A DNA stretch of 32,000 bases from positions 720,001 to 752,000 of the forward strand of contig NC_003450.3 in assembly GCF_000011325.1 (NCBI RefSeq), in the 5' to 3' direction. Every line of letters begins with the position of its first letter. Positions within the stretch are counted from its first letter, which is position 1. The stretch comes from Corynebacterium glutamicum ATCC 13032 (GTDB taxonomy: Bacteria > Actinomycetota > Actinomycetes > Mycobacteriales > Mycobacteriaceae). Shown one piece after another: positions 8,622-32,000 of the stretch. Below the pieces are notes generated by a model, which had not been told where the DNA came from, searched no databases, and saw nothing but the letters and a program-made list of their open reading frames with translations. The translations under genes were made by a program, and so were the position numbers.

Positions 8622-8675
8622 CTTATTGAACCCTTATTGAATTCTTATTGAATTCTTATTGAATTCTTTTGAACC
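8622..8675. repeat. 11-bp tandem repeat, about 5 copies (CTTATTGAAYY)
   Basis: The copies are CTTATTGAACC, then CTTATTGAATT three times, then a degenerate CTTTTGAACC. The array lies between the accD1 stop and the accD2 upstream region. Confidence 0.85.
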
Positions 8676-8692
8676 TTTATGGATTCGCCGAT

Positions 8693-10324
8693 TTACAGTG
8701 GCATGTTGCCGTGCTTGCGAGCAGGGCGAGTGACGTTCTTGTGCTTGAGCAGGCGAAGGTTGCGGGAAATCTGTCCGCGGGTTTCGCTTGGCAGGATCAC
8801 GGCGTCGATCAGGCCACGTTCTGCAGCGTGGTACGGGTTGAGCATGTGGTCTTCATACTCGCGCTCGAAGGACTTAGCCAGAGCTACGGTATCGAGGCCC
8901 TTGGCATCAGCTGCCATGAGCTCCTTGCGGTAGATGAATCCAACTGCGCCAGCAGCGCCCATGACGGCGATCTGTGCGGTTGGCCATGCAAGGTTGATGT
9001 CAGAGCCCAAGCCCTTGGAACCCATCACGCAGTACGCTCCGCCGTAAGCCTTACGCATGGTGACGGTGATCTTTGGAACGGTTGCTTCGCCGTATGCGTA
9101 GAGCAGCTTTGCGCCACGACGCAGAATGCCACCGTACTCCTGGCCTGCGCCTGGGAGGAAGCCGGGGACGTCGACAAGCATGACGATTGGGATGTTGAAC
9201 GCGTCGCAGGTGCGGACGAAGCGAGCTGCCTTCTCAGAGGAGTCGATGTCCAGGCAGCCAGCGAACTGGGTTGGCTGGTTGGCAACAAAGCCAACGGACT
9301 GGCCTTCGATGCGGCCGAATGCAATAACAACGTTTTCTGCGCGGTCTGCCTGGATTTCCAGGTATTCGCCATCGTCGGTGAGGCATTCGATGACATCGCG
9401 GACGTCGTAAGGAACGGTCGCGGAATCTGGGATGATCTCGTCGAGCTTCAGATCGTCAGCGGTGATGTTTTCTTCAACGCCGCCTTCTTCCTCGTCGAAG
9501 TCTTCCATCGGTGCGTAGGAGCGATTGTTGGATGGGAGGAAGGACACCAGGTCCTGTACCCAATCCAGTGCTTCCTCATCGGTCGCAGCGGTGTAGTGGG
9601 AGTTACCAGCGGTCACCATGTGGGTGGTTGCTCCGCCAAGCTCTTCCTGGGTGATTTCCTCGCCGGTGACGGTCTTGATCACGTCTGGGCCGGTAACGAA
9701 CATCTTGGAGGTCTTGTCCACCATGACCACGAAGTCGGTCAGAGCTGGGCCGTAAGCGTTGCCACCTGCACATGCGCCCATGATGACGGAGATCTGTGGG
9801 ATAACGCCAGAAGCCTGAATGTTTTGGTAGAAGGTCTGGGAAATGAAGTCCAGGGAGACAGCGCCGTCCTGAATACGAGCGCCAGCGCCTTCGTAAAGAC
9901 CGATCAATGGGCGGCCGGTGTCGATTGCCAGCTCCATGATCTTGATCATCTTTTCGCCGTACACCTCACCAAGCGCGCCACCGAATACGGTGCCGTCCTG
10001 CGAGAAGATGCAGACTTCGCGTCCATCAATGGTGCCCCAGCCGGTCACGATGCCGTCGGTTGCAGGACGCTTAGCGCCCAGGCCGAAAGCGGTGGTGCGG
10101 TGGCGAGCCAGCTGATCGGTCTCGATGAAGGAGCCCTCATCGAGTAAGTAATCCAAGCGCTCACGGGCAGTGAGGCGTCCAGCAGCGTGGACCTTCTCTA
10201 CTGCCTTTTCACCCATGGGGAAATGGGCTTCCGCGCGGCGAGCCTTAAGGTCGGCGATCTTGCCGGCAGTGGTGTTGATGTCTGGAAGGTTGGCGACGTC
10301 AATCAAAGGTGAGGAAATGGTCAT
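8693..10324 (-). CDS. accD1: Acetyl/propionyl-CoA carboxylase beta subunit (carboxyltransferase), DtsR1/AccD1
   Basis: 543-aa ORF beginning [30 protein letters not shown], recognised as DtsR1. It has the complete carboxyl_trans domain. Confidence 0.95.
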
Positions 10325-20164: not shown

Positions 20165-20263
20165 GTGTGCACAAGGTCATGACACTATGCATGCACAAGG
20201 TCATGGCATTAAGTGTGCATAAGGTCATGACACTGAGTGTGCACAACCCTCTGACACAAAACA
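20165..20263. repeat. Subterminal array of 24-bp direct repeats at the IS right end (3 copies plus the terminal IR)
   Basis: The units are GTGTGCACAAGGTCATGACACTAT, GCATGCACAAGGTCATGGCATTAA, GTGTGCATAAGGTCATGACACTGA and GTGTGCACAACCCTCTGACACAAAACA. Confidence 0.85.
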
Positions 20264-21016
20264 GTTGAAAACCAGTCCTCCGTCGACGACCAAGTTTTGG
20301 CCTGTAACCGCGCGCGACCAGGGGGATGCGAAGAAGAGGGAGGCGTCGGCAAGCTCTTGGGGAGTGGTGACGGACCCCAGTGGGGTGCCGGCGGCGATGA
20401 AATCAAAGACTTCCTCGGGCGTGGCGGCGCTGGCGCCGGTGGTGCGCAGCAGGCCGCCGCTGACCATGTTGACCGTGATGTGGCGTGGGCCCAAATCCTT
20501 GGCAAACGTGCGAGTCAAGGACAGCAGCGCAGCCTTCGCAGCGGTGTAATCGTGGTAGGGGACAGTCGGATTCTGGAAAAGATTCGTGCCGATGTTAATC
20601 ACACGACCACTTCCCACCTCCTCAAAACCAGGCAAAGCCTCCTGGATGGTGTTCAGCGCGCCCTCGATTGCGCTGGTGTACTGCTGATTAAAACGCTCAA
20701 TGGTGATGTCCTCCGCCTTGGGACGCGCATCGCCATCAAAGCTGAAATCCGCCAAAGCGCTGTTGACCACAGTGGTGATCGGGCTGCCGAAATGTTCCTT
20801 GGCCTGCGCAAACATGCTTTTCACCTGTTCGCGATCACGAACATCAGCCTGAATCGCCACCGCCTTTTCACCAGCCAGCTCTGCGGCAGCATCAGCCGAA
20901 CGGTGATAGTTCACCACAACACGAGCACCCTCGCGCAAAAATGATTCAGACAACGCGCGACCAAGTCCGCGTGCACCGCCGGTGACCAAAACAATTTGCT
21001 CAGAAATATCAAGCAT
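20225..21016 (-). CDS. Short-chain dehydrogenase/reductase (FabG-like); the last 12 codons and the stop are supplied by the IS end
   Basis: 263-aa ORF with the TGGARGLG cofactor motif and the YHDYTAAKAA catalytic motif. The codons for CFVSEGCAHSVS* (20261-20225) lie inside the IS. Confidence 0.88.
   Translation of the reverse strand: MLDISEQIVLVTGGARGLGRALSESFLREGARVVVNYHRSADAAAELAGEKAVAIQADVRDREQVKSMFAQAKEHFGSPITTVVNSALADFSFDGDARPKAEDITIERFNQQYTSAIEGALNTIQEALPGFEEVGSGRVINIGTNLFQNPTVPYHDYTAAKAALLSLTRTFAKDLGPRHITVNMVSGGLLRTTGASAATPEEVFDFIAAGTPLGSVTTPQELADASLFFASPWSRAVTGQNLVVDGGLVFNCFVSEGCAHSVS
20264..20277. repeat. Target-site duplication, right copy (GTTGAAAACCAGTC)
   Basis: Identical to 18532-18545. 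Confidence 0.85.
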
Positions 21017-21177
21017 GAAAAAACGCCCTTCTTGGGTTGGGGCGAAGGGCAGAGGGACCTATCCCTTGGGAGGATGGGTCCAATGCGACAGTCCCTTCGC
21101 CAGTACTAACTGGATCAGGTTCGACGGGTGTAATCTCAGCGAAAGCTTTTTTAAAGTGCTTTTGCACCCCGTGTCAC
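21017..21177 (-). promoter_or_regulatory. TPP (THI-box) riboswitch with a terminator-type expression platform
   Basis: The minus-strand aptamer spans 21177-21085 and contains the blocks GGGGUGC, CUGAGA, ACCCGU and GAACCUGAUCCAGUUAGUACUGGCGAAGGGA, with P1 formed by GUGACA/UGUCGC. The terminator GCCCUUC-12 nt-GAAGGGC plus U6 spans 21050-21018. It ends 1 nt before the SDR ATG. Confidence 0.88.
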
Positions 21178-21396
21178 TAGTAGCCGAGGGTATCAGTTTG
21201 TGAGCGCGTGTGGGGCGAGTTGGTACAGAAGAGCAATTCAGGCCGACACCACAAACTCCGATCTAACAAAGATTTGCGCTGCCAACTATGGCAGTTTTGG
21301 ATCCTAGATACCATGCTTGTAAAAGTACTGCAAATGGATACTGGACTGTCGTAACGGTATACCATAGAAACAATCTGTAATCCTCTAAGGAGCGCG

Positions 21397-27027: not shown

Positions 27028-28026
27028 CTAAGCGATACGCTCGCCCGACTCCAGATCGAAATGATGCGCCTGCGCCGCATCATAGGAAAAAGTCACAGGC
27101 GTGCCAGGGGCTGGCACGGGGCCTTCCACCCAACGGGCCACCAGGCGGTGGCCCTCCCAAGTGGCATAAACATACGATTCGGAGCCAAGCTCCTCGACGA
27201 TATCCACCACAGCATCAATGCTTGTGAAACCCTCAGGGGTCTCATTGACCAGCATCTTCTCCGGGCGCACACCCATCTTGTGCCCGTTGGCAGGGAAGAG
27301 GTTCATGGACGGCGAGCCGATGAAGCCCGCAACGAATTCGTTGACCGGGGCGTCGTAAAGCTCCCTGGGCGGTGCGACCTGCTGCAGCAACCCGTCCTTG
27401 AGCACCGCAACCCGATCGCCCATCGTCATTGCCTCAACCTGATCGTGGGTGACATACACCGTGGTGGTGCCCAGGCGACGCTGCAAAGCAGCGACCTCCG
27501 CGCGGGTTTGCACGCGCAATTTCGCATCCAGGTTGGACAGCGGCTCATCCATGAGGAACACCTTCGGATCACGCACCAACGCGCGACCCATCGCCACACG
27601 CTGACGCTGACCACCCGATAAATCCTTAGGCTTGCGATCCAAAAACTCCGTCAACCCAAGAATTTCCGCAGCCTCATTGACCTTCGCATCGATCTGCGCC
27701 TGCGGCAGCTTAGCCAACTTCAGCGCAAAACCCATATTCTTCGCCACCGTCATGTGAGGGTACAGAGCATAATTCTGGAACACCATCGCGATATCGCGAT
27801 CCGCCGGCTCCTGACCAGTGACATCCTTGCCATCAATTTTGATCACACCCGACTCCACGCCCTCAAGCCCCGCCAAAGCACGCAGCGTAGTGGATTTACC
27901 ACAACCCGAAGGGCCGACGAGCACCAAAAACTCGCCATCAGCGATATCTAAATCAAGCTCATGAACTGTTGCGCGCTCCGCGCCGGGGTACCGGATTGTG
28001 ACCTTGTCGAATGTGACCGTTGCCAT
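27028..28026 (-). CDS. tusK: ABC ATPase (MalK/MsiK-type), trehalose uptake system
   Basis: 332-aa ORF with Walker A GPSGCGKST, signature LSGGQRQR and Walker B VFLMDEPLS. Confidence 0.93.
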   Translation of the reverse strand: MATVTFDKVTIRYPGAERATVHELDLDIADGEFLVLVGPSGCGKSTTLRALAGLEGVESGVIKIDGKDVTGQEPADRDIAMVFQNYALYPHMTVAKNMGFALKLAKLPQAQIDAKVNEAAEILGLTEFLDRKPKDLSGGQRQRVAMGRALVRDPKVFLMDEPLSNLDAKLRVQTRAEVAALQRRLGTTTVYVTHDQVEAMTMGDRVAVLKDGLLQQVAPPRELYDAPVNEFVAGFIGSPSMNLFPANGHKMGVRPEKMLVNETPEGFTSIDAVVDIVEELGSESYVYATWEGHRLVARWVEGPVPAPGTPVTFSYDAAQAHHFDLESGERIA

Positions 28027-28112
28027 GTTCTACTAAATTACCAGCACCAGTACACATTGTGGGTTTAGCGGGTCTAAATTGGGACCGCTGTTCAAGGTCA
28101 GGAGCAGAACGC

Positions 28113-28445
28113 ATGGCTACTGCCAAAGTTCGCGATCGGTGGCAACAACTCTTTTGGGGCGGCATCAAGCTCAAAGGACTCAACGGCTTATTTGAGCTCA
28201 TCGGCGGAGTGCTCCTCCTTCTTGTCGATCCCGAAAGCCTTCACCACTGGACCGTTCTGCTCACCCAAAACGAACTGAATGAAGATCCCGACAATGGCAT
28301 CGCCACGTTCCTTGGGCACAGCAGTGAATCACTCACCAGCCACGCTACGTTGTTCAGCGCTAGATATCTACTGACGCACGGCCTTGCGAAAGTGGTACTC
28401 CTGGTCGCAGTCCTGAAAACAAACTGTGGGCATACCCGTGGATGA
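28113..28445 (+). pseudogene. DUF2127-like membrane protein, apparently disrupted (in-frame TGA at 28443-28445)
   Basis: ATG 28113 is preceded by CAGGAG. The sequence IKLKGLNGLFELIGGVLLLL...NELNEDPDN fits my recollection of DUF2127. Family-like sequence continues past the stop: KLWAYPWMIAAGF in another frame, then IAYQLYQIALH in frame. Confidence 0.45.
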
Positions 28446-28845
28446 TTGCTGCTGGCTTTCATCGCGTATCAGCTGTACCAAATCGCACTTCACGCCAGCG
28501 CCGGAATGATCGCGCCGACAATTTTCCACAGTATCGGTGTAACTCGGGAAAAACTCCACCACGTATGGATCTGCAATGTCGACGGCGTAGTTGGTGTCTC
28601 CTGTTTGATTCGTATTGATATTGAGAATCTGATCCATCACCAGCTCAACGGGAGCACCAGAACGATCACGTTTTCTCGTGGTTGTTCATCTACGCTTTCA
28701 CTGCTCCATGAGACAAGCGATGCGCCAAGGGCAAGAGTTGCTCCGATTAAGGCTAAAGTGCGTCGTGTATTTATGCGTCCAATTCGAATTTTATTGGGGT
28801 TGGGATCTTCGCGATGATACTGAAAGCACCCCAGCCTTAGTCGGT

Positions 28846-28869
28846 CCCACAGCTGCTTTTAGCTGTGGG
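28846..28869 (-). terminator. Hairpin just after the helicase stop (no U tract)
   Basis: CCCACAGCT-GCTTTT-AGCTGTGGG is a perfect 9-bp stem lying 14 nt downstream of the stop at 28883-28885. Confidence 0.5.
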
Positions 28870-28882
28870 TAGCTGGTGTTAT

Positions 28883-31800
28883 CTACTCAGATTTTGGCAT
28901 CGCAACCGCCATATGGTGAAGCAAGTCCAATGCAATATCGCGCCTTAAATCGAGATGGAAACGCTGGTTAGAAAATGATCGCAAACAGGCATAACACGAA
29001 GTATCGATGCCACAAGAACAGGTTTCGACCCTTCTAATTGCCGCTTCGAGTACTTGAGGGAAGTTTTCTCGAACTTTTCGGGTAATACCAGCTCCACCAG
29101 GAACAGTATCGAACAACACCATCGTTGGCCTGTTGTCGTGTTTCGCCATGGTGCCGTTTAGATCATCACGATTGATTTCTAAACATTCAGCAGCTGCCTC
29201 GATGATGGCGTACATTCCAGAGCGCCACCCTTCGAAGTCAAGATTTGTATAAGAAGGAACGGCAACTGTCGCGATGTCAGTTTGGTAGGTGTGACCCAAA
29301 GAGTGGGGTTCTAAGTAGTAGGTGCCACACTGCTGCTTAGTTCTGGGGTTTCGATGGCTTTTAGGGATTTCGGCGCCATTGGGAGTGCCGAATCCGCATG
29401 TTTGGCAATACCAAAATCCATTCTTGTTAGGACCTGTTTCAAGCGCTCCCATCTCCGTCCGACTCCAAGAAGAAGTAAGTACTTGCGCAGTTGCTGTCCC
29501 ATCTGAATTTGAGAACTCTTCACTGTCATCTTTGACACCGAACTGCTTTACAAATTCAAGTCGATTAGAGGATCGGACCGGGGGAGCAGTGCCCACTTCA
29601 GTTGGATTTGGGTCTGCAACGAAACCAAAACGAGGGATAAGGAACTTGTTCTCTTTACCCAGCGATATTGGTGCAGAGCACTGAGAACAGACATCTTCAG
29701 ATGTAAATCCAAAACGAGAGGTTTCAGTATGTTTACACTCAGTACACGTTGTCCAATAAAAAGTTTCCACCTTTTTACCGGCTAGGTGTCGAATGCCAGC
29801 GGATTTCCACAATTTTCCGCCTGCTACTAACTCCGCACCAGGAGCATAGTCGGTAATCGCTAGCTGAAGATCTCGTGACAAGCTCACCTTATTTCCAGCT
29901 TCACTGAAGTTTGTTTGAAGATCTACTGTATCGACAGGGAAGCTGTACTTGGGCAGCATGTTCTTCTTGGCCAAGTATCCCAAAAGATCTTGGTCCATCA
30001 GAGTTGTGATTGTGCGTTTGAAGGCATCTGCCTTTTTGCCTTGTTCACTGCCCAGCGCTCGCCCTTGCATCTTTTTAAGCGTTTGGAAATCTTCGGAGAT
30101 CTCCTGACGAGTTGTATCGAAAATTTCAAGGAATTGTTTAACCCAACCTTGATTTTCAATATCCAGATCCTCATGCAGGGACTCAGGGAATACGCGACGG
30201 AGGGCTTCAGTGATGTAATTAGGAACAGGGGAGAGAAACTCTTCGAGGATCTCCGTTGCCTCTTGCTCTGCGACAGCAGGCCTAAGGTATGGAGCTGCAT
30301 CAGTGCCAAGGAAGAACTCTCCGGCCTTTTTCCAGAACCGATTTTGGGCAGCCTGCTCTCGGAAAAATGCGGCGAGAGCGATTGAATAGGTGTGACGACG
30401 GGCGATTCGGGCATTGTTAATGTGCAAAAATGGCACTGTCATTTCGCCATCAATCATCTGGGTTGGGTTCTTAAATACAGCCAAGTCATGAGAAGATCGC
30501 TTAGCAAAGGTAAGCACAAAAGCTGCTGAACCTGATCGGCGTCCCGCACGTCCCGCACGTTGCACATAGTTAGCCGTACGTGGCGGTACGTTGCGCATCA
30601 TTACTGACTGCAGATCACCAACGTCAACTCCAAGCTCAAACGTAGTAGAACAGCTTAGGACATTGATTTTTCCTTCGATGAATTCTTTCTGAACCTCTGC
30701 AGCCTCCGTTGGCGTCCATTGAGCAGTGTGCTCTTTGGCTGAAAGCGGAAGAATTTCAAGCGATGTTGCCAACTTCCGATAATGATTGTTGGCATACTCC
30801 GGTAAAGAAGTATCGATTTCTTTTAGCTTGCCTTTACAGAACCCATGTGGACACAGCCCGAGAACATTAAATGGCGTTGTATTTCTACAAGTGTCACATT
30901 CATACCAGGAATGTTGTTTTCCAGGGCTTACTTGCAGTGAGTTGTAGTTAAGTGTGTAGCCTTCGGCCTTTTCGCCTGGGACCTTCAAAATTTCGGAATT
31001 AGTGTAGTCATTCCATAGGTGATGGAGAAGCGTCGTAATATTTTCACCTTCGTCACCTGCTTGTCCGATGCGGTTCAAGACTTTTGTAATGAAGTCCTTG
31101 CGATTGTTGGTTCCTCGTTGCGGAATCCATGAGTAGAGGCGTCGTGTTGATTTTCTTCCACCATCTTTGGTGAAAAAGTGCTGCCCACGACGAGGGCCAA
31201 AGCGTTCATCCTCAAGATTGACGTAGTCAGGGCAATTGATTGCGCCCTTGTGACGGAATTCTTGAGCGAAGAGATTAAAAAAGGCGTCGGCGGCATCCGG
31301 ATCCCCAAACATCTCGCCAAGTGGTTTTCTGAAACTGAGTTGCGACAAAGCCTCAGGGGTCAGTTCAATTTTGGCTAGTCCAAGCCCTTCAGTCGAACTA
31401 CGTCGGACTGTCGAAGCAAGATCTGCGAATACCCAGTTACCTGTCTGTTCTAGTGTTTCGCGTGGGTTCAAGTTGTTAGCGAGGACTCGATTGTTTTTCG
31501 CCACTTCACTTGCGCGGGAAATCCATCGTTCAATGGATGCGCCTTCAGTAAATTCTTCATCCCGCAGGGTCTCAATGAGGATTCTTCGCTCTAGCAACCT
31601 GGTGTAACTTGCTTGCAAATATGGTGCTGCGTAAGCGGCAGCCTGGCGGGAGTCAGAAAACGTGAGTAGTTTGCGTCCAGCACCGATCTTGCGTGATGTA
31701 TCTTGATCAGCTGATTCTGGCAACAGTTGGAACAATGATGTGGTGAGGACAGAAGGTGCAGCATTTGAATCGGTTCGGAGTCGTCGAATCAGGTTCTTTT

Positions 31801-32000
31801 CTCGGCCACCGCATCGAGTGCATGTTAATTGGCTACCATTCCGGGGTTCCAAGATCTTTACATCAATAAACTGGTCATGATGTGATGAGCATCCGGAGCA
31901 GAGAAGAGAGTTCTTTCCGTTTAGTTTTCCGCAGGCCGTACATAATTTTTGTAGCTCAAGGACTTTGACGTTCTCGTCAGCATCAGTTTCTAGGTCATCT
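28883..32000 (-). CDS. Very large SF2 (DEAD/DEAH-type) helicase with multiple zinc ribbons and a C-terminal DUF1998/MrfA-type Zn-binding domain; the N-terminus lies beyond the right edge
   Basis: The motifs are LLTFSDSRQ, HTAQW, STTFELGVDVGDL and QRAGRAGRR, followed by LPKYSFPVDTVDL. The zinc-ribbon candidates are CTEC..CSQC, CQTCG and the terminal CSCGIDTSCYAC...FHLDLRRD. My own translation of 31853-32000 stays open (…LQKLCTACGKLNGKNSLLCSGCSSHHDQFIDVKILEPRNG…). The track's start at 31852 is therefore not the real start. Confidence 0.9.
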   Translation of the reverse strand, partial: DDLETDADENVKVLELQKLCTACGKLNGKNSLLCSGCSSHHDQFIDVKILEPRNGSQLTCTRCGGREKNLIRRLRTDSNAAPSVLTTSLFQLLPESADQDTSRKIGAGRKLLTFSDSRQAAAYAAPYLQASYTRLLERRILIETLRDEEFTEGASIERWISRASEVAKNNRVLANNLNPRETLEQTGNWVFADLASTVRRSSTEGLGLAKIELTPEALSQLSFRKPLGEMFGDPDAADAFFNLFAQEFRHKGAINCPDYVNLEDERFGPRRGQHFFTKDGGRKSTRRLYSWIPQRGTNNRKDFITKVLNRIGQAGDEGENITTLLHHLWNDYTNSEILKVPGEKAEGYTLNYNSLQVSPGKQHSWYECDTCRNTTPFNVLGLCPHGFCKGKLKEIDTSLPEYANNHYRKLATSLEILPLSAKEHTAQWTPTEAAEVQKEFIEGKINVLSCSTTFELGVDVGDLQSVMMRNVPPRTANYVQRAGRAGRRSGSAAFVLTFAKRSSHDLAVFKNPTQMIDGEMTVPFLHINNARIARRHTYSIALAAFFREQAAQNRFWKKAGEFFLGTDAAPYLRPAVAEQEATEILEEFLSPVPNYITEALRRVFPESLHEDLDIENQGWVKQFLEIFDTTRQEISEDFQTLKKMQGRALGSEQGKKADAFKRTITTLMDQDLLGYLAKKNMLPKYSFPVDTVDLQTNFSEAGNKVSLSRDLQLAITDYAPGAELVAGGKLWKSAGIRHLAGKKVETFYWTTCTECKHTETSRFGFTSEDVCSQCSAPISLGKENKFLIPRFGFVADPNPTEVGTAPPVRSSNRLEFVKQFGVKDDSEEFSNSDGTATAQVLTSSWSRTEMGALETGPNKNGFWYCQTCGFGTPNGAEIPKSHRNPRTKQQCGTYYLEPHSLGHTYQTDIATVAVPSYTNLDFEGWRSGMYAIIEAAAECLEINRDDLNGTMAKHDNRPTMVLFDTVPGGAGITRKVRENFPQVLEAAIRRVETCSCGIDTSCYACLRSFSNQRFHLDLRRDIALDLLHHMAVAMPKSE

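What the first reader, a model, noticed from the sequence alone, without database searches (positions are those of the whole stretch)
28883..32000. Giant helicase-DUF1998 fusion with extra zinc ribbons at an AT-richer island edge: candidate defence or DNA-repair module, only partly visible
**What the sequence shows**
- At least 1,039 codons of one minus-strand ORF are visible, and the RecA1 lobe (Walker A/B) is still missing. The full protein is therefore probably well over 1,300 aa.
- A CxxC...CxxC...CxxC segment (about 31800-31950) precedes the motif-IV-like LLTFSDSRQ (about 31643-31669).
- An insertion of about 300 aa carrying another ribbon (CDTC...CPHGFC) separates LLTFSDSRQ from HTAQW / FELGVDVGDL / QRAGRAGRR (30536-30562).
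- A tail of about 550 aa follows, with LPKYSFPVDTVDL, CTEC...CSQC and CQTCG. It ends in the cysteine cluster CSCGIDTSCYAC...NQRFHLDL, typical of DUF1998.

**What is known about this architecture**
- Helicase plus DUF1998 is the architecture of MrfA/YprA, which acts in mitomycin repair and is about 750 aa.
- It is also the architecture of Druantia DruE, which is much larger.
- In DISARM the same two modules are split as DrmA and DrmB.
- The size and the extra insertions here fit the defence-type proteins better than MrfA.

**Context**
- By eye the gene is AT-richer than the flanking core genes.
- It is separated from the tus operon by decayed ORFs.
- From memory, the reference C. glutamicum annotation continues with further helicase, methylase and SNF2 genes. 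I cannot verify that from this window.
Basis: partly seen in the sequence, partly recalled or inferred. Interest (0 to 1): 0.75.

Follow-up and report, generated by a model that had tools for sequence, protein, structure and literature searches.

The report
Druantia type III anti-phage helicase DruE
The large gene at the window's right edge is the helicase half (DruE, cg0838) of a two-gene Druantia type III-B anti-phage system in Corynebacterium glutamicum, a recently characterised kind of bacterial immunity, so it is a correctly spotted but ordinary member of a known family.

Summary
Window 28883-31999 (-) is an intact 1038-codon open frame that runs off the window. The full protein is 1600 aa: C. 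glutamicum cg0838/NCgl0700.

It is a DruE helicase:
- PADLOC DruE models match at E 1e-190 to 1e-116.
- The solved E. coli DruE (9tu7) matches at E 7.6e-85.
- A profile alignment to E. coli DruE is colinear over 1412 columns.
- It ends 33 aa after the MZB/DUF1998 cysteine cluster, so it lacks the C-terminal PLD-like domains of E. coli DruE. This is the compact "III-B" form.

Eight bases upstream, outside the window, lies cg0839 (1233 aa, no Pfam). A homologous ~1100-1350-aa gene sits directly upstream of the helicase in 81 of 84 related loci with an upstream ORF, across several phyla. DruH HMMs miss it. Two results still identify it as a divergent DruH:
- Profile-profile comparison with proteobacterial DruH gives 95% probability, E 2.8e-8.
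- Its AlphaFold model (pLDDT 89) has DruH's plan: N-terminal helical domain, Ig-like array, C-terminal helical domain.

The extra zinc ribbons are published features of defence-type YprA helicases. The gene is AT-rich (47.6% GC against 52.6-58.6%) and sits in a defence island. A system inferred to be of this form protects M. smegmatis from phages. Verdict: new member of a known kind; modest interest.

The parts
28883..31999 (-). C-terminal 1038 codons plus stop of druE (cg0838/NCgl0700; full length 1600 aa). The N-terminal 562 codons (RecA1, BrxA-like domain, start of the zinc module) lie beyond the window.
   Evidence: Translation; PADLOC DruE1 4e-114 and DruE3 1.6e-108 on the fragment; P0001 is 100% identical; named in C. 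glutamicum records.
31796..31954 (-). Zinc-binding beta-barrel module at the start of RecA2 (fragment residues about 16-68; CxxC at 20/23, 34/37, 60/63).
   Evidence: Cysteines conserved in 60 homologues (C20, C23, C34, C60, C63 invariant; fourth position near-invariant); strands in the AF2 model; domain described for Druantia helicases in PMC12458937 and as ZBM_L in E. coli DruE.
31643..31669 (-). Helicase motif IV-like LLTFSDSRQ (fragment residues 111-119).
   Evidence: K110-Q119 invariant or nearly invariant in alignment A5.
30740..31642 (-). About 300-aa mainly helical insertion into RecA2 (fragment residues 120-420). It corresponds to the MarR-like/'Cap' region of DruE and ends in a four-cysteine ribbon, C368/C371/C383/C388 (30836-30898).
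   Evidence: AF2 secondary structure; invariant cysteines; hhalign runs colinear through this region with E. coli DruE; literature.
30425..30739 (-). RecA2 core with HTAQW, FELGVDVGDL and QRAGRAGRR (motifs V-VI; fragment residues 421-525).
   Evidence: Pfam Helicase_C 1.5e-10 at residues 418-488; near-complete invariance of this stretch.
29960..30412 (-). Helical (winged-HTH-like) domain between RecA2 and the OB fold (fragment residues about 530-680).
   Evidence: Long helices at 530-678 in the AF2 model; position as in MrfA and DruE.
29213..29959 (-). OB fold and connector with two small zinc-binding insertions (C752/C755/C771/C774; C865/C868/C891). Includes LPKYSFPVDTVDL.
   Evidence: Invariant residues; beta-rich model; Foldseek top hit MrfA 6znp, E 1e-11; two inserted zinc modules reported in all Druantia types.
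28982..29212 (-). MZB (DUF1998) zinc-binding domain with cysteine cluster C994/C996/C1002/C1005. The protein ends 33 residues later, with no PLD-like or other nuclease domain.
   Evidence: Pfam PF09369 2.5e-17; E. coli DruE continues about 390 aa beyond the aligned end.
28020..28817 (+). DUF2127-like pseudogene in the spacer between druE and the trehalose ABC-transporter genes (in-frame stop at 28443-28445). Not part of the system; it marks the island edge.
   Evidence: Pfam DUF2127 1.3e-11, covering profile positions 8-90 of 140; translation.

Best explanation
The ORF is druE, the helicase of a two-gene Druantia type III anti-phage system of the compact III-B form. Its partner druH (cg0839, 1233 aa) ends 8 bases upstream of the druE start, just outside the window.

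**Shown here**
- DruE is an intact YprA/MrfA-like SF2 helicase. It has Walker A, DEAH, motifs IV-VI, a zinc beta-barrel, a helical insertion in RecA2, and OB-connector-MZB.
- It is colinear with the solved E. coli DruE but has no C-terminal nuclease-like domains.
- It is always paired with a fast-evolving protein that is a remote homologue of DruH and has DruH's domain plan: N-terminal helical domain, Ig-like array, C-terminal helical domain.
- The pair is AT-rich, patchily distributed, and sits among other defence genes.

**Inferred from characterised relatives**
- After infection, DruH senses or processes exposed single-stranded phage DNA or 3' ends.
- DruE, probably as a dimer, loads at ssDNA-duplex junctions and unwinds 3'-to-5' using ATP.
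- Together they block phage genome circularisation and replication.
- The protein has no nuclease domain of its own. DNA destruction, if it occurs, must come from DruH or host nucleases.
For: **DruE identity**
- PADLOC on full-length P0001: DruE1 1.5e-190, DruE3 2.7e-180, DruE2 5e-127, DruE4 2e-116.
- PDB 9tu7 (E. coli DruE, identity of the entry confirmed) matches at E 7.6e-85, against MrfA at 7e-30.
- hhalign of 12 actinobacterial homologues against E. coli DruE: probability 100%, E 2e-90, 1412 columns, E. coli residues 47-1717 of 2104.
- No counterpart exists for the last ~390 E. coli residues. [quoted passage not shown]

**Partner**
- A 1233-aa ORF ends 8 nt before druE in L001.
- ORFs of ~1100-1350 aa sit in the same position in C. 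pacaense, Rhodococcus and M. canettii and in most of the 80 genome loci from Actinomycetota, Chloroflexota, Bacillota and an archaeon.
- An iterated profile places 81 of 84 upstream ORFs in one family.
- hhalign of 52 partners against 8 proteobacterial DruH: probability 95.2%, E 2.8e-8, 683 colinear columns.
- AF2 model: pLDDT 89, pTM 0.72, with helical, beta-rich (124-710) and helical (727-1050) regions. Foldseek hits Ig/macroglobulin domain arrays. Cryo-EM of P. aeruginosa DruH shows the same plan (10.64898/2026.05.13.724313).

**Function in relatives**
- M. smegmatis MSMEG_1253 (1132 aa) plus MSMEG_1254 (1667 aa) reduces plating of mycobacteriophages by more than 10^4. Both genes and the helicase/MZB residues K119, A292 and C1516 are needed (PMC13316683).
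- Those residue numbers match the Walker A lysine (K119) of the mycobacterial members found here; A292 and C1516 fit motif III and the MZB cysteines by offset from P0001.

**Accessory character**
- GC 0.476 against 0.526-0.586.
- The C. pacaense copy sits at the same site. Its DruE is 59% and DruH 41% identical, against 70-87% for flanking genes. Other corynebacteria carry the pair elsewhere.
- Neighbours are GmrSD, a UvrD/GajB-like helicase and a second YprA-like helicase.
Against: - No experiment on C. glutamicum links cg0838/cg0839 to phage resistance, and no paper in the searchable library connects Corynebacterium with Druantia.
- All eleven-odd PADLOC DruH models and NCBIfam YjiT_fam miss the partner, although they hit every proteobacterial DruH tested.
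- The DruH link rests on one profile-profile result that covers only the N-terminal two thirds, plus a shared domain plan. It could not be checked by superposition, because the Foldseek library predates the DruH entry 9tud.
- The best single PADLOC model is DruE1 (type I), not DruE3.
- I did not align MSMEG_1254 directly. Its membership of this clade is inferred from size, taxon and residue numbering.
- Published mechanisms for type III disagree. DruH is described as an exonuclease, as an ATP-inhibited ssDNA binder, and as a scaffold. The PLD domain is reported as essential and as dispensable. The outcome is reported as abortive and as non-abortive. The mechanistic steps for a PLD-less system are therefore uncertain.
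Confidence: 0.88

Rival explanations
1. It is an enlarged MrfA/YprA-type DNA-repair helicase that acts on mitomycin-type lesions, not on phage.
For: It has the same core fold. MrfA is the best Foldseek hit in the library available (6znp, E 1e-11), and it shares the MZB domain. In E. coli, Druantia III-A becomes toxic with mitomycin C, so the family does touch damaged DNA. M. smegmatis SftH can replace DruE next to DruH.
Against: The sequence match to MrfA (7e-30) is far weaker than to DruE (7.6e-85). TIGR03817 scores 62 bits against a cut-off of 874. The protein is twice MrfA's size, with the Druantia-lineage insertions. No MrfB-like exonuclease is nearby; the partner is DruH-like. Composition is AT-rich and distribution is patchy.
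Confidence: 0.04
2. It belongs to another YprA-based system (Druantia type I, II or IV, DISARM or ARMADA), and cg0839 is an unrelated neighbour.
For: The top PADLOC model is DruE1. The island holds a second 2100-aa helicase-MZB protein. That would fit ARMADA, which co-occurs with Druantia III in E. coli.
Against: No DruA-D, DruM/F/G, DruL, DrmB/C or methylase models hit the genes within 10 kb upstream. DrmA models reach only 1e-13. Helicase and MZB are fused, unlike DISARM. The 1100-1350-aa partner is the only gene conserved next to this helicase across phyla, and in C. pacaense and M. canettii the pair stands alone.
Confidence: 0.05
3. The locus is a decaying or silent remnant with no current function.
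For: The adjacent DUF2127 gene is broken. Related loci include a frameshifted druH (L021). E. coli K-12 carries only pseudogene remnants of this system (own knowledge).
Against: Both ORFs are intact over 1600 and 1233 codons, and all catalytic motifs and zinc ligands are conserved. The same protein sequences recur in many C. glutamicum assemblies. cg0838 mRNA is detected and regulated in published transcriptomes.
Confidence: 0.03

Closest known systems
Druantia type III-B (DruH-DruE), e.g. M. smegmatis MSMEG_1253/MSMEG_1254 (PMC13316683); III-B representative GIH50614.1 in PMC12458937
   Same: Two co-directional, abutting genes. DruE is ~1550-1670 aa, with DEAH helicase, zinc modules and MZB, and no PLD domains. 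DruH is ~1100-1250 aa with no Pfam domain. Host is an actinobacterium. Mycobacterial homologues found here are 40-41% identical to the window fragment of Cg0838, and their Walker A lysine matches the numbering of the mutated M. smegmatis residue K119.
   Different: Cg0838 has an N-terminal extension of about 40 aa and only a 33-aa tail after the MZB cluster; some Rhodococcus and Mycobacterium members have 125-140 aa there. Cg0839 is only 20-22% identical to the Rhodococcus and Mycobacterium partners. The C. glutamicum system is untested.
Druantia type III-A of E. coli and P. aeruginosa (DruE PDB 9tu7; DruH PDB 9tud; YjiT/STY4851 family)
   Same: Same gene order and the same helicase architecture, colinear over about 1400 columns. 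The partner has the same domain plan and is detectable as a remote homologue.
   Different: III-A DruE is ~2100 aa, with two C-terminal PLD-like domains that are absent here. III-A DruH is recognised by PADLOC DruH3 and NCBIfam YjiT_fam, whereas the partner here is not. The C-terminal third of the partner did not align in hhalign.
MrfA/YprA (B. subtilis mitomycin repair factor A, PDB 6znp)
   Same: RecA1-RecA2-helical-OB-connector-MZB core. Best structural match in the older PDB library.
   Different: MrfA is 750 aa and lacks the BrxA-like, zinc beta-barrel and RecA2 insertions. It works with the MrfB exonuclease in repair. Sequence similarity is much weaker.
ARMADA and DISARM (YprA-like helicase with SNF2/BrxHII-like helicase and methyltransferase)
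   Same: Same helicase superfamily. ARMADA helicases share the BrxA-like and zinc beta-barrel insertions, and ARMADA co-occurs with Druantia III.
   Different: No SNF2 or methyltransferase gene adjoins cg0838, and it has no C-terminal Vsr nuclease. In DISARM the MZB module is a separate protein.

Membership tests
Druantia type III (DruH-DruE) | DruE: large YprA-like SF2 helicase with DEAD/DEAH, Helicase_C and MZB (DUF1998) domains that matches DruE-specific profiles | tested here: met
   Pfam DEAD 3.6e-24, Helicase_C 2.5e-11, MZB 2.1e-17. PADLOC DruE models 1.5e-190 to 1.9e-116. PDB E. coli DruE 7.6e-85. hhalign E 2e-90 over 1412 columns.
Druantia type III (DruH-DruE) | A single large partner gene immediately upstream and co-directional, with no other Druantia genes | tested here: met
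   cg0839 (1233 aa) ends 8 nt before druE in L001. No DruA-D/F/G/L/M hits on neighbours. The same pairing occurs in 81 of 84 related loci with an upstream ORF. The partner lies outside the window.
Druantia type III (DruH-DruE) | Partner recognised by curated DruH models (PADLOC DruH3; NCBIfam YjiT_fam NF038336) | tested here: not met
   No hit for Cg0839 or 11 other partners. The positive controls all hit: four proteobacterial DruH against the PADLOC models and E. coli DruH against YjiT_fam. The models appear to have been built from the III-A branch only.
Druantia type III (DruH-DruE) | Partner homologous to DruH at profile level and with DruH's domain plan (N-terminal helical, Ig-like array, C-terminal helical) | tested here: met
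   hhalign of 52 against 8 sequences: probability 95.2%, E 2.8e-8, 683 columns. AF2 model with pLDDT 89 shows the three-part plan. Foldseek hits Ig/macroglobulin arrays. DruH structure described. Direct superposition on 9tud was not possible.
Druantia subtype III-B | Compact DruE without the two C-terminal PLD-like domains | tested here: met
   The protein ends 33 aa after the MZB cluster. E. coli DruE residues ~1718-2104 have no counterpart. No nuclease fold appears in the model search. Definition.
Druantia type III (DruH-DruE) | Confers phage resistance that requires both genes | not testable with these tools
   Shown for the M. smegmatis system and for E. coli and P. aeruginosa III-A. Not tested for C. 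glutamicum.
MrfA/YprA repair helicase (MrfAB) | About 750-aa helicase reaching the family's curated score, paired with the MrfB exonuclease | tested here: not met
   1600 aa. TIGR03817 scores 62 bits against a cut-off of 874. No exonuclease partner among the neighbours.
DISARM | Helicase (DrmA) and DUF1998 protein (DrmB) as separate genes, with DrmC and a methylase | tested here: not met
   Helicase and MZB are fused. DrmA models reach only 7e-13. No DrmB/C or methylase within 10 kb upstream.
ARMADA | YprA-like helicase adjacent to a BrxHII-like SNF2 helicase and a PglX-like methyltransferase, usually with a C-terminal Vsr nuclease | tested here: not met
   Neither gene adjoins cg0838 in L001, and there is no C-terminal extension. 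The second helicase of the island (cg0843) might qualify; this was not tested.
Druantia type I | DruA, DruB, DruC and DruD upstream of DruE | tested here: not met
   DruE1 is the top PADLOC model, but no DruA-D hits appear on the upstream genes.

The most novel reading that the evidence does not exclude
The III-B partner may do a different job from proteobacterial DruH.

- No DruH model detects it, it evolves about twice as fast as its helicase, and its C-terminal third did not align with III-A DruH.
- It might sense a phage structural protein (as the minor tail protein trigger in M. smegmatis hints) and directly block genome circularisation.
- On this reading, nuclease-free Druantia would stop phages by a mechanism distinct from the helicase-nuclease degradation proposed for III-A.
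- In C. glutamicum the system might also be wired to the cell-division regulator FtsR, which binds inside cg0839.
Probability: 0.15. Interest if true: 0.55.

Novelty: new member of a known kind. Interest (0 to 1): 0.3.

Why it matters
C. glutamicum is an industrial workhorse and a model actinobacterium in which phage contamination and phage-host biology matter. cg0838/cg0839 have so far been annotated only as 'helicase' and 'hypothetical protein'. Assigning them to Druantia III-B adds a named, testable immune system to the organism's defence island.

The work also exposes a practical gap. Current DruH profile models (PADLOC 2.0, NCBIfam) miss the whole III-B partner family, so automated tools will under-call this system in Actinomycetota, Chloroflexota and Bacillota.

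The 2026 mechanistic papers disagree on whether the PLD nuclease of DruE is needed. A naturally PLD-less system in a tractable host is a convenient test case. None of this changes current understanding of the family.

Tried and rejected
- **Word-indexed homology search for the partner.** The search with Cg0839 found only itself and one close relative. The exhaustive phmmer search was needed (76 representatives).
- **Sequence and profile searches of the PDB with the partner family.** These found nothing, although DruH is deposited as 9tud.
- **hhalign of the partner profile against a single E. coli DruH sequence.** This was insignificant (probability 2%). It became significant only after I built an 8-sequence III-A profile from plasmid records.
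- **Foldseek against the PDB.** This could not test the DruH or DruE structures, because the library stops at 2026-04-08. It returned only generic Ig-domain arrays and MrfA.
- **My third homology search.** I used the C-terminal 149 aa of the 2100-aa neighbour, to reach the methylase and SNF2 genes. It found nothing, so the far side of the island stays unverified.
- **A simple codon-usage distance.** It did not separate druE from core genes; GC and GC3 do.
- **Promoter and terminator scan.** No sigma-70-like promoter appeared in the spacer. The one terminator-like hairpin near the druE stop (28850-28875) is on the opposite (+) strand and within chance expectation.
- **tRNA genes or integration repeats at the island edge.** I looked for tRNAs in the window and found none.
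- **MrfA, DISARM, ARMADA and Druantia I/II/IV.** Considered and rejected, as set out in the membership tests.

Full report
**Observation.** Window 28883-31999 on the minus strand translates into 1038 sense codons followed by a stop, and the frame is still open at the window edge. Pfam finds Helicase_C (residues 418-488 of the fragment) and the MrfA zinc-binding domain MZB/DUF1998 (930-1006). The region is AT-richer than the rest of the window. GC is 0.476 and GC3 is 0.438, against GC 0.526-0.586 and GC3 0.505-0.733 for 16 other long ORFs.

**Identity of the gene.**
- A search of 5.8 billion proteins returned a 1600-aa protein (P0001) identical over the whole fragment.
- Its cluster members are named 'putative helicase' or 'DEAD/DEAH box helicase' of Corynebacterium glutamicum (MB001 AGT04723.1 and others).
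- The literature knows it as cg0838/NCgl0700, a 179-kDa ATP-dependent helicase with a C-terminal cysteine cluster (PMC6683498).
- The missing N-terminus carries Walker A (GTGSGKT, 152-158) and DEAH (294-297).
- PADLOC's Druantia DruE models match the full protein at E 1.5e-190 (DruE1), 2.7e-180 (DruE3), 5e-127 (DruE2) and 2e-116 (DruE4). BrxH, DrmA and DpdF/J models reach only 1e-27 to 1e-9.
- In the PDB the best match is a 2108-aa chain, 9tu7 (E 7.6e-85), which I confirmed to be E. coli DruE. MrfA/YprA comes third at 7e-30.
- The YprA-type NCBIfam model scores 62 bits against a cut-off of 874.

**Context.** A Logan contig carrying P0001 (L001) is the reverse complement of the window, with 2 mismatches in 6382 bases, so it extends the window by 11.7 kb. 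Upstream of druE it shows, in order:
- a 1233-aa ORF with no Pfam, PADLOC or NCBIfam hit, ending 8 bases before the druE start (cg0839);
- a 217-aa TIGR03089-family gene (cg0840);
- an 811-aa GmrSD-type enzyme;
- a 766-aa UvrD/GajB-like helicase;
- the end of a second 2100-aa DEAD/Helicase_C/MZB protein.

Downstream, the 856-base spacer to the trehalose ABC-transporter genes contains a DUF2127-like ORF. It is truncated relative to its profile and interrupted by an in-frame stop.

**The partner is conserved.**
- In C. pacaense, Rhodococcus rhodochrous and M. canettii, a 1125-1189-aa protein with no Pfam domain sits immediately upstream of the DruE homologue.
- These partners align end to end with Cg0839 at 20-22% identity.
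- A scan of one genome per species found at least 591 species with a relative. In the 80 loci returned (Actinomycetota, Chloroflexota, Bacillota, Bacteroidota, an Aquificaceae genome and a Methanosarcinales genome), most have an 1100-1350-aa open frame ending at or overlapping the helicase start.
- An iterated profile search grew from 31 to 81 of the 84 upstream ORFs.
- An exhaustive phmmer search of 1.84 billion representatives found 76 relatives, almost all 1100-1250 aa.

The two genes therefore form a conserved module.

**Is the partner DruH?** The curated models say no. None of 12 partners from different phyla hit any PADLOC DruH3 model or NCBIfam YjiT_fam. The positive controls all hit: four proteobacterial DruH against the PADLOC models and E. 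coli DruH against YjiT_fam.

I took bona fide III-A DruH proteins from plasmids that carry the E. coli-type Zorya II-Druantia III-ARMADA array and from seven other proteobacterial plasmids. The E. coli one is the deposited structure 9tud 'DruH'. Results of the comparison:
- Partner family profile against the single E. coli sequence: insignificant.
- Profile against profile: probability 95.2%, E 2.8e-8, over 683 colinear columns from the N-terminus through the middle region.
- AlphaFold model built on 54 family members: mean pLDDT 89, pTM 0.72. It shows an N-terminal helical part, a beta-rich stretch (124-710) and a C-terminal helical domain (727-1050).
- Foldseek matches for that model are arrays of Ig/macroglobulin-like domains.

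[quoted passage not shown] I conclude that Cg0839 is a divergent DruH. The caveat is that direct superposition was impossible, because the fold library predates 9tud.

**Subtype.** A profile of 12 actinobacterial DruE aligns with E. coli DruE at probability 100%, E 2e-90, over 1412 columns. The alignment covers E. coli residues 47-1717 of 2104. The remaining ~390 E. coli residues are the two PLD-like domains (10.64898/2026.05.12.722862; PMC13192584). They have no counterpart here, and Cg0838 ends 33 residues after the MZB cluster. [quoted passage not shown] It also matches the 'Type III-like' branch of Bell et al., where most members have 'no nuclease domain at all'. A model of the window fragment (pLDDT 82.8) finds MrfA as its top structural match and no nuclease fold.

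**The extra zinc ribbons.** The cysteines are conserved in 60 homologues, nearly all of them invariant. They correspond to modules already described for the Druantia/ARMADA/BRIGADE/TALON lineage (PMC12458937; ZBM_L and Cap):
- a zinc-binding beta-barrel at the start of RecA2;
- a MarR-like insertion into RecA2 with a zinc module at its end;
- two small zinc modules inside the OB-connector region.

They are real, but not new.

**How it probably works.** Shown here: an intact helicase with all motifs, an intact DruH-like partner, operon-like spacing, and defence-island context. The rest is inferred from relatives.
- The M. smegmatis pair MSMEG_1253 (1132 aa) and MSMEG_1254 (1667 aa) reduces plating of several mycobacteriophages by more than 10^4. 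It needs both proteins, their interaction, and the Walker A, motif III and MZB residues. It blocks phage DNA circularisation and replication (PMC13316683).
- The mutated residue K119 coincides with the Walker A lysine of the mycobacterial members of the family found here, and A292 and C1516 fit motif III and the MZB cysteines by offset from P0001. This supports, but does not prove, that the system belongs to the same clade.
- For III-A, DruE is a dimeric 3'-to-5' DNA helicase that loads at ssDNA-duplex junctions.
- DruH is variously reported as an ATP-inhibited ssDNA-binding protein, a 3'-5' exonuclease that licenses DruE, or a scaffold or sensor.
- The PLD domains are reported as dispensable or as required.

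For the PLD-less C. glutamicum protein, the most likely scheme has three steps. DruH recognises or trims exposed phage ssDNA. DruE then unwinds the DNA using ATP. Replication and circularisation fail. Any DNA degradation would come from DruH or host nucleases.

**Accessory nature.**
- In C. pacaense the pair occupies the same site between the TIGR03089 gene and the trehalose transporter. Its DruE is 59% and its DruH 41% identical, against 70-87% for the flanking genes.
- Two other corynebacteria carry the pair in unrelated contexts.
- DruH diverges roughly twice as fast as DruE throughout.

Together with the low GC, this argues against a core repair orthologue.

**What is known, and novelty.** No paper in the searchable library links Corynebacterium to Druantia. 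cg0838 appears there only in two contexts: as a helicase with an FtsR ChAP-seq peak inside cg0839, and among helicase genes down-regulated by a phage gyrase inhibitor. The system type, its III-B form and its anti-phage activity in an actinobacterium are all published. This is therefore a new member of a known kind. The useful by-product is that current DruH models miss the entire III-B partner family.

**Limits.**
- The partner and the N-terminal third of DruE lie outside the window, and were read from a near-identical contig.
- Function in C. glutamicum is untested.

Noticed in passing
window 21074-21181 (-): TPP riboswitch (Rfam RF00059, 67.3 bits against a gathering score of 54.3, full-length). 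It lies just upstream of the 263-aa ORF at 20225-21016 (-).
   Followed up: no
window 28020-28817 (+): DUF2127-family membrane-protein gene with an in-frame stop at 28443-28445. The text after the stop still looks like the family (LLLAFIAYQLYQ), so this is probably a pseudogene at the island edge. C. pacaense has only 54 nt between druE and the ABC gene.
   Followed up: partly
L001 1-5325 (beyond the window's right end): The defence island continues with an 811-aa GmrSD type IV restriction enzyme (GC 0.461), a 766-aa UvrD/GajB-like helicase, and a second, 2100-aa DEAD/Helicase_C/MZB protein (cg0843). With the methylase and SNF2 genes reported further on, cg0843 could be an ARMADA system next to Druantia III, as in E. 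coli.
   Followed up: partly
L001 3-449: A word-indexed search with the C-terminal 149 aa of the 2100-aa protein found no hit at all, although the gene is called on that contig. Unexplained; possibly an indexing gap.
   Followed up: no
L003 14956-18393 (Rhodococcus rhodochrous): A second DruH-family paralogue (1141 aa, E 1.8e-229 against the III-B partner profile) lies directly downstream of DruE, giving DruH-DruE-DruH'. This was seen only in this Rhodococcus locus, fetched as two contigs (L003 and L004), among the related loci scanned. An SNF2 helicase and an MmeI-like methyltransferase lie divergently upstream.
   Followed up: partly
L021 6409-9903 (Nocardiopsis halotolerans): The druH gene is split into three overlapping frames, so it is apparently a frameshifted pseudogene next to an intact DruE.
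   Followed up: no
L094 (Azotobacter chroococcum plasmid pAcX50f): A YjiT-type (III-A) DruH is paired with a compact DruE of about 1705 aa. DruE length and DruH type are therefore not strictly coupled.
   Followed up: no
L001 6291-9992 (cg0839): A published ChAP-seq study places a binding peak of the cell-division regulator FtsR inside cg0839. cg0838 mRNA rose 4.6-fold in the ftsR mutant, beyond the effect of an amplification of cg0830-cg0838 (PMC6683498).
   Followed up: no
window 8669-10324: Two long antisense open frames overlap almost completely (492 aa on +, 543 aa on -), so only one can be the gene. GC and GC3 were computed only for the minus-strand ORF (0.586 and 0.697).
   Followed up: no
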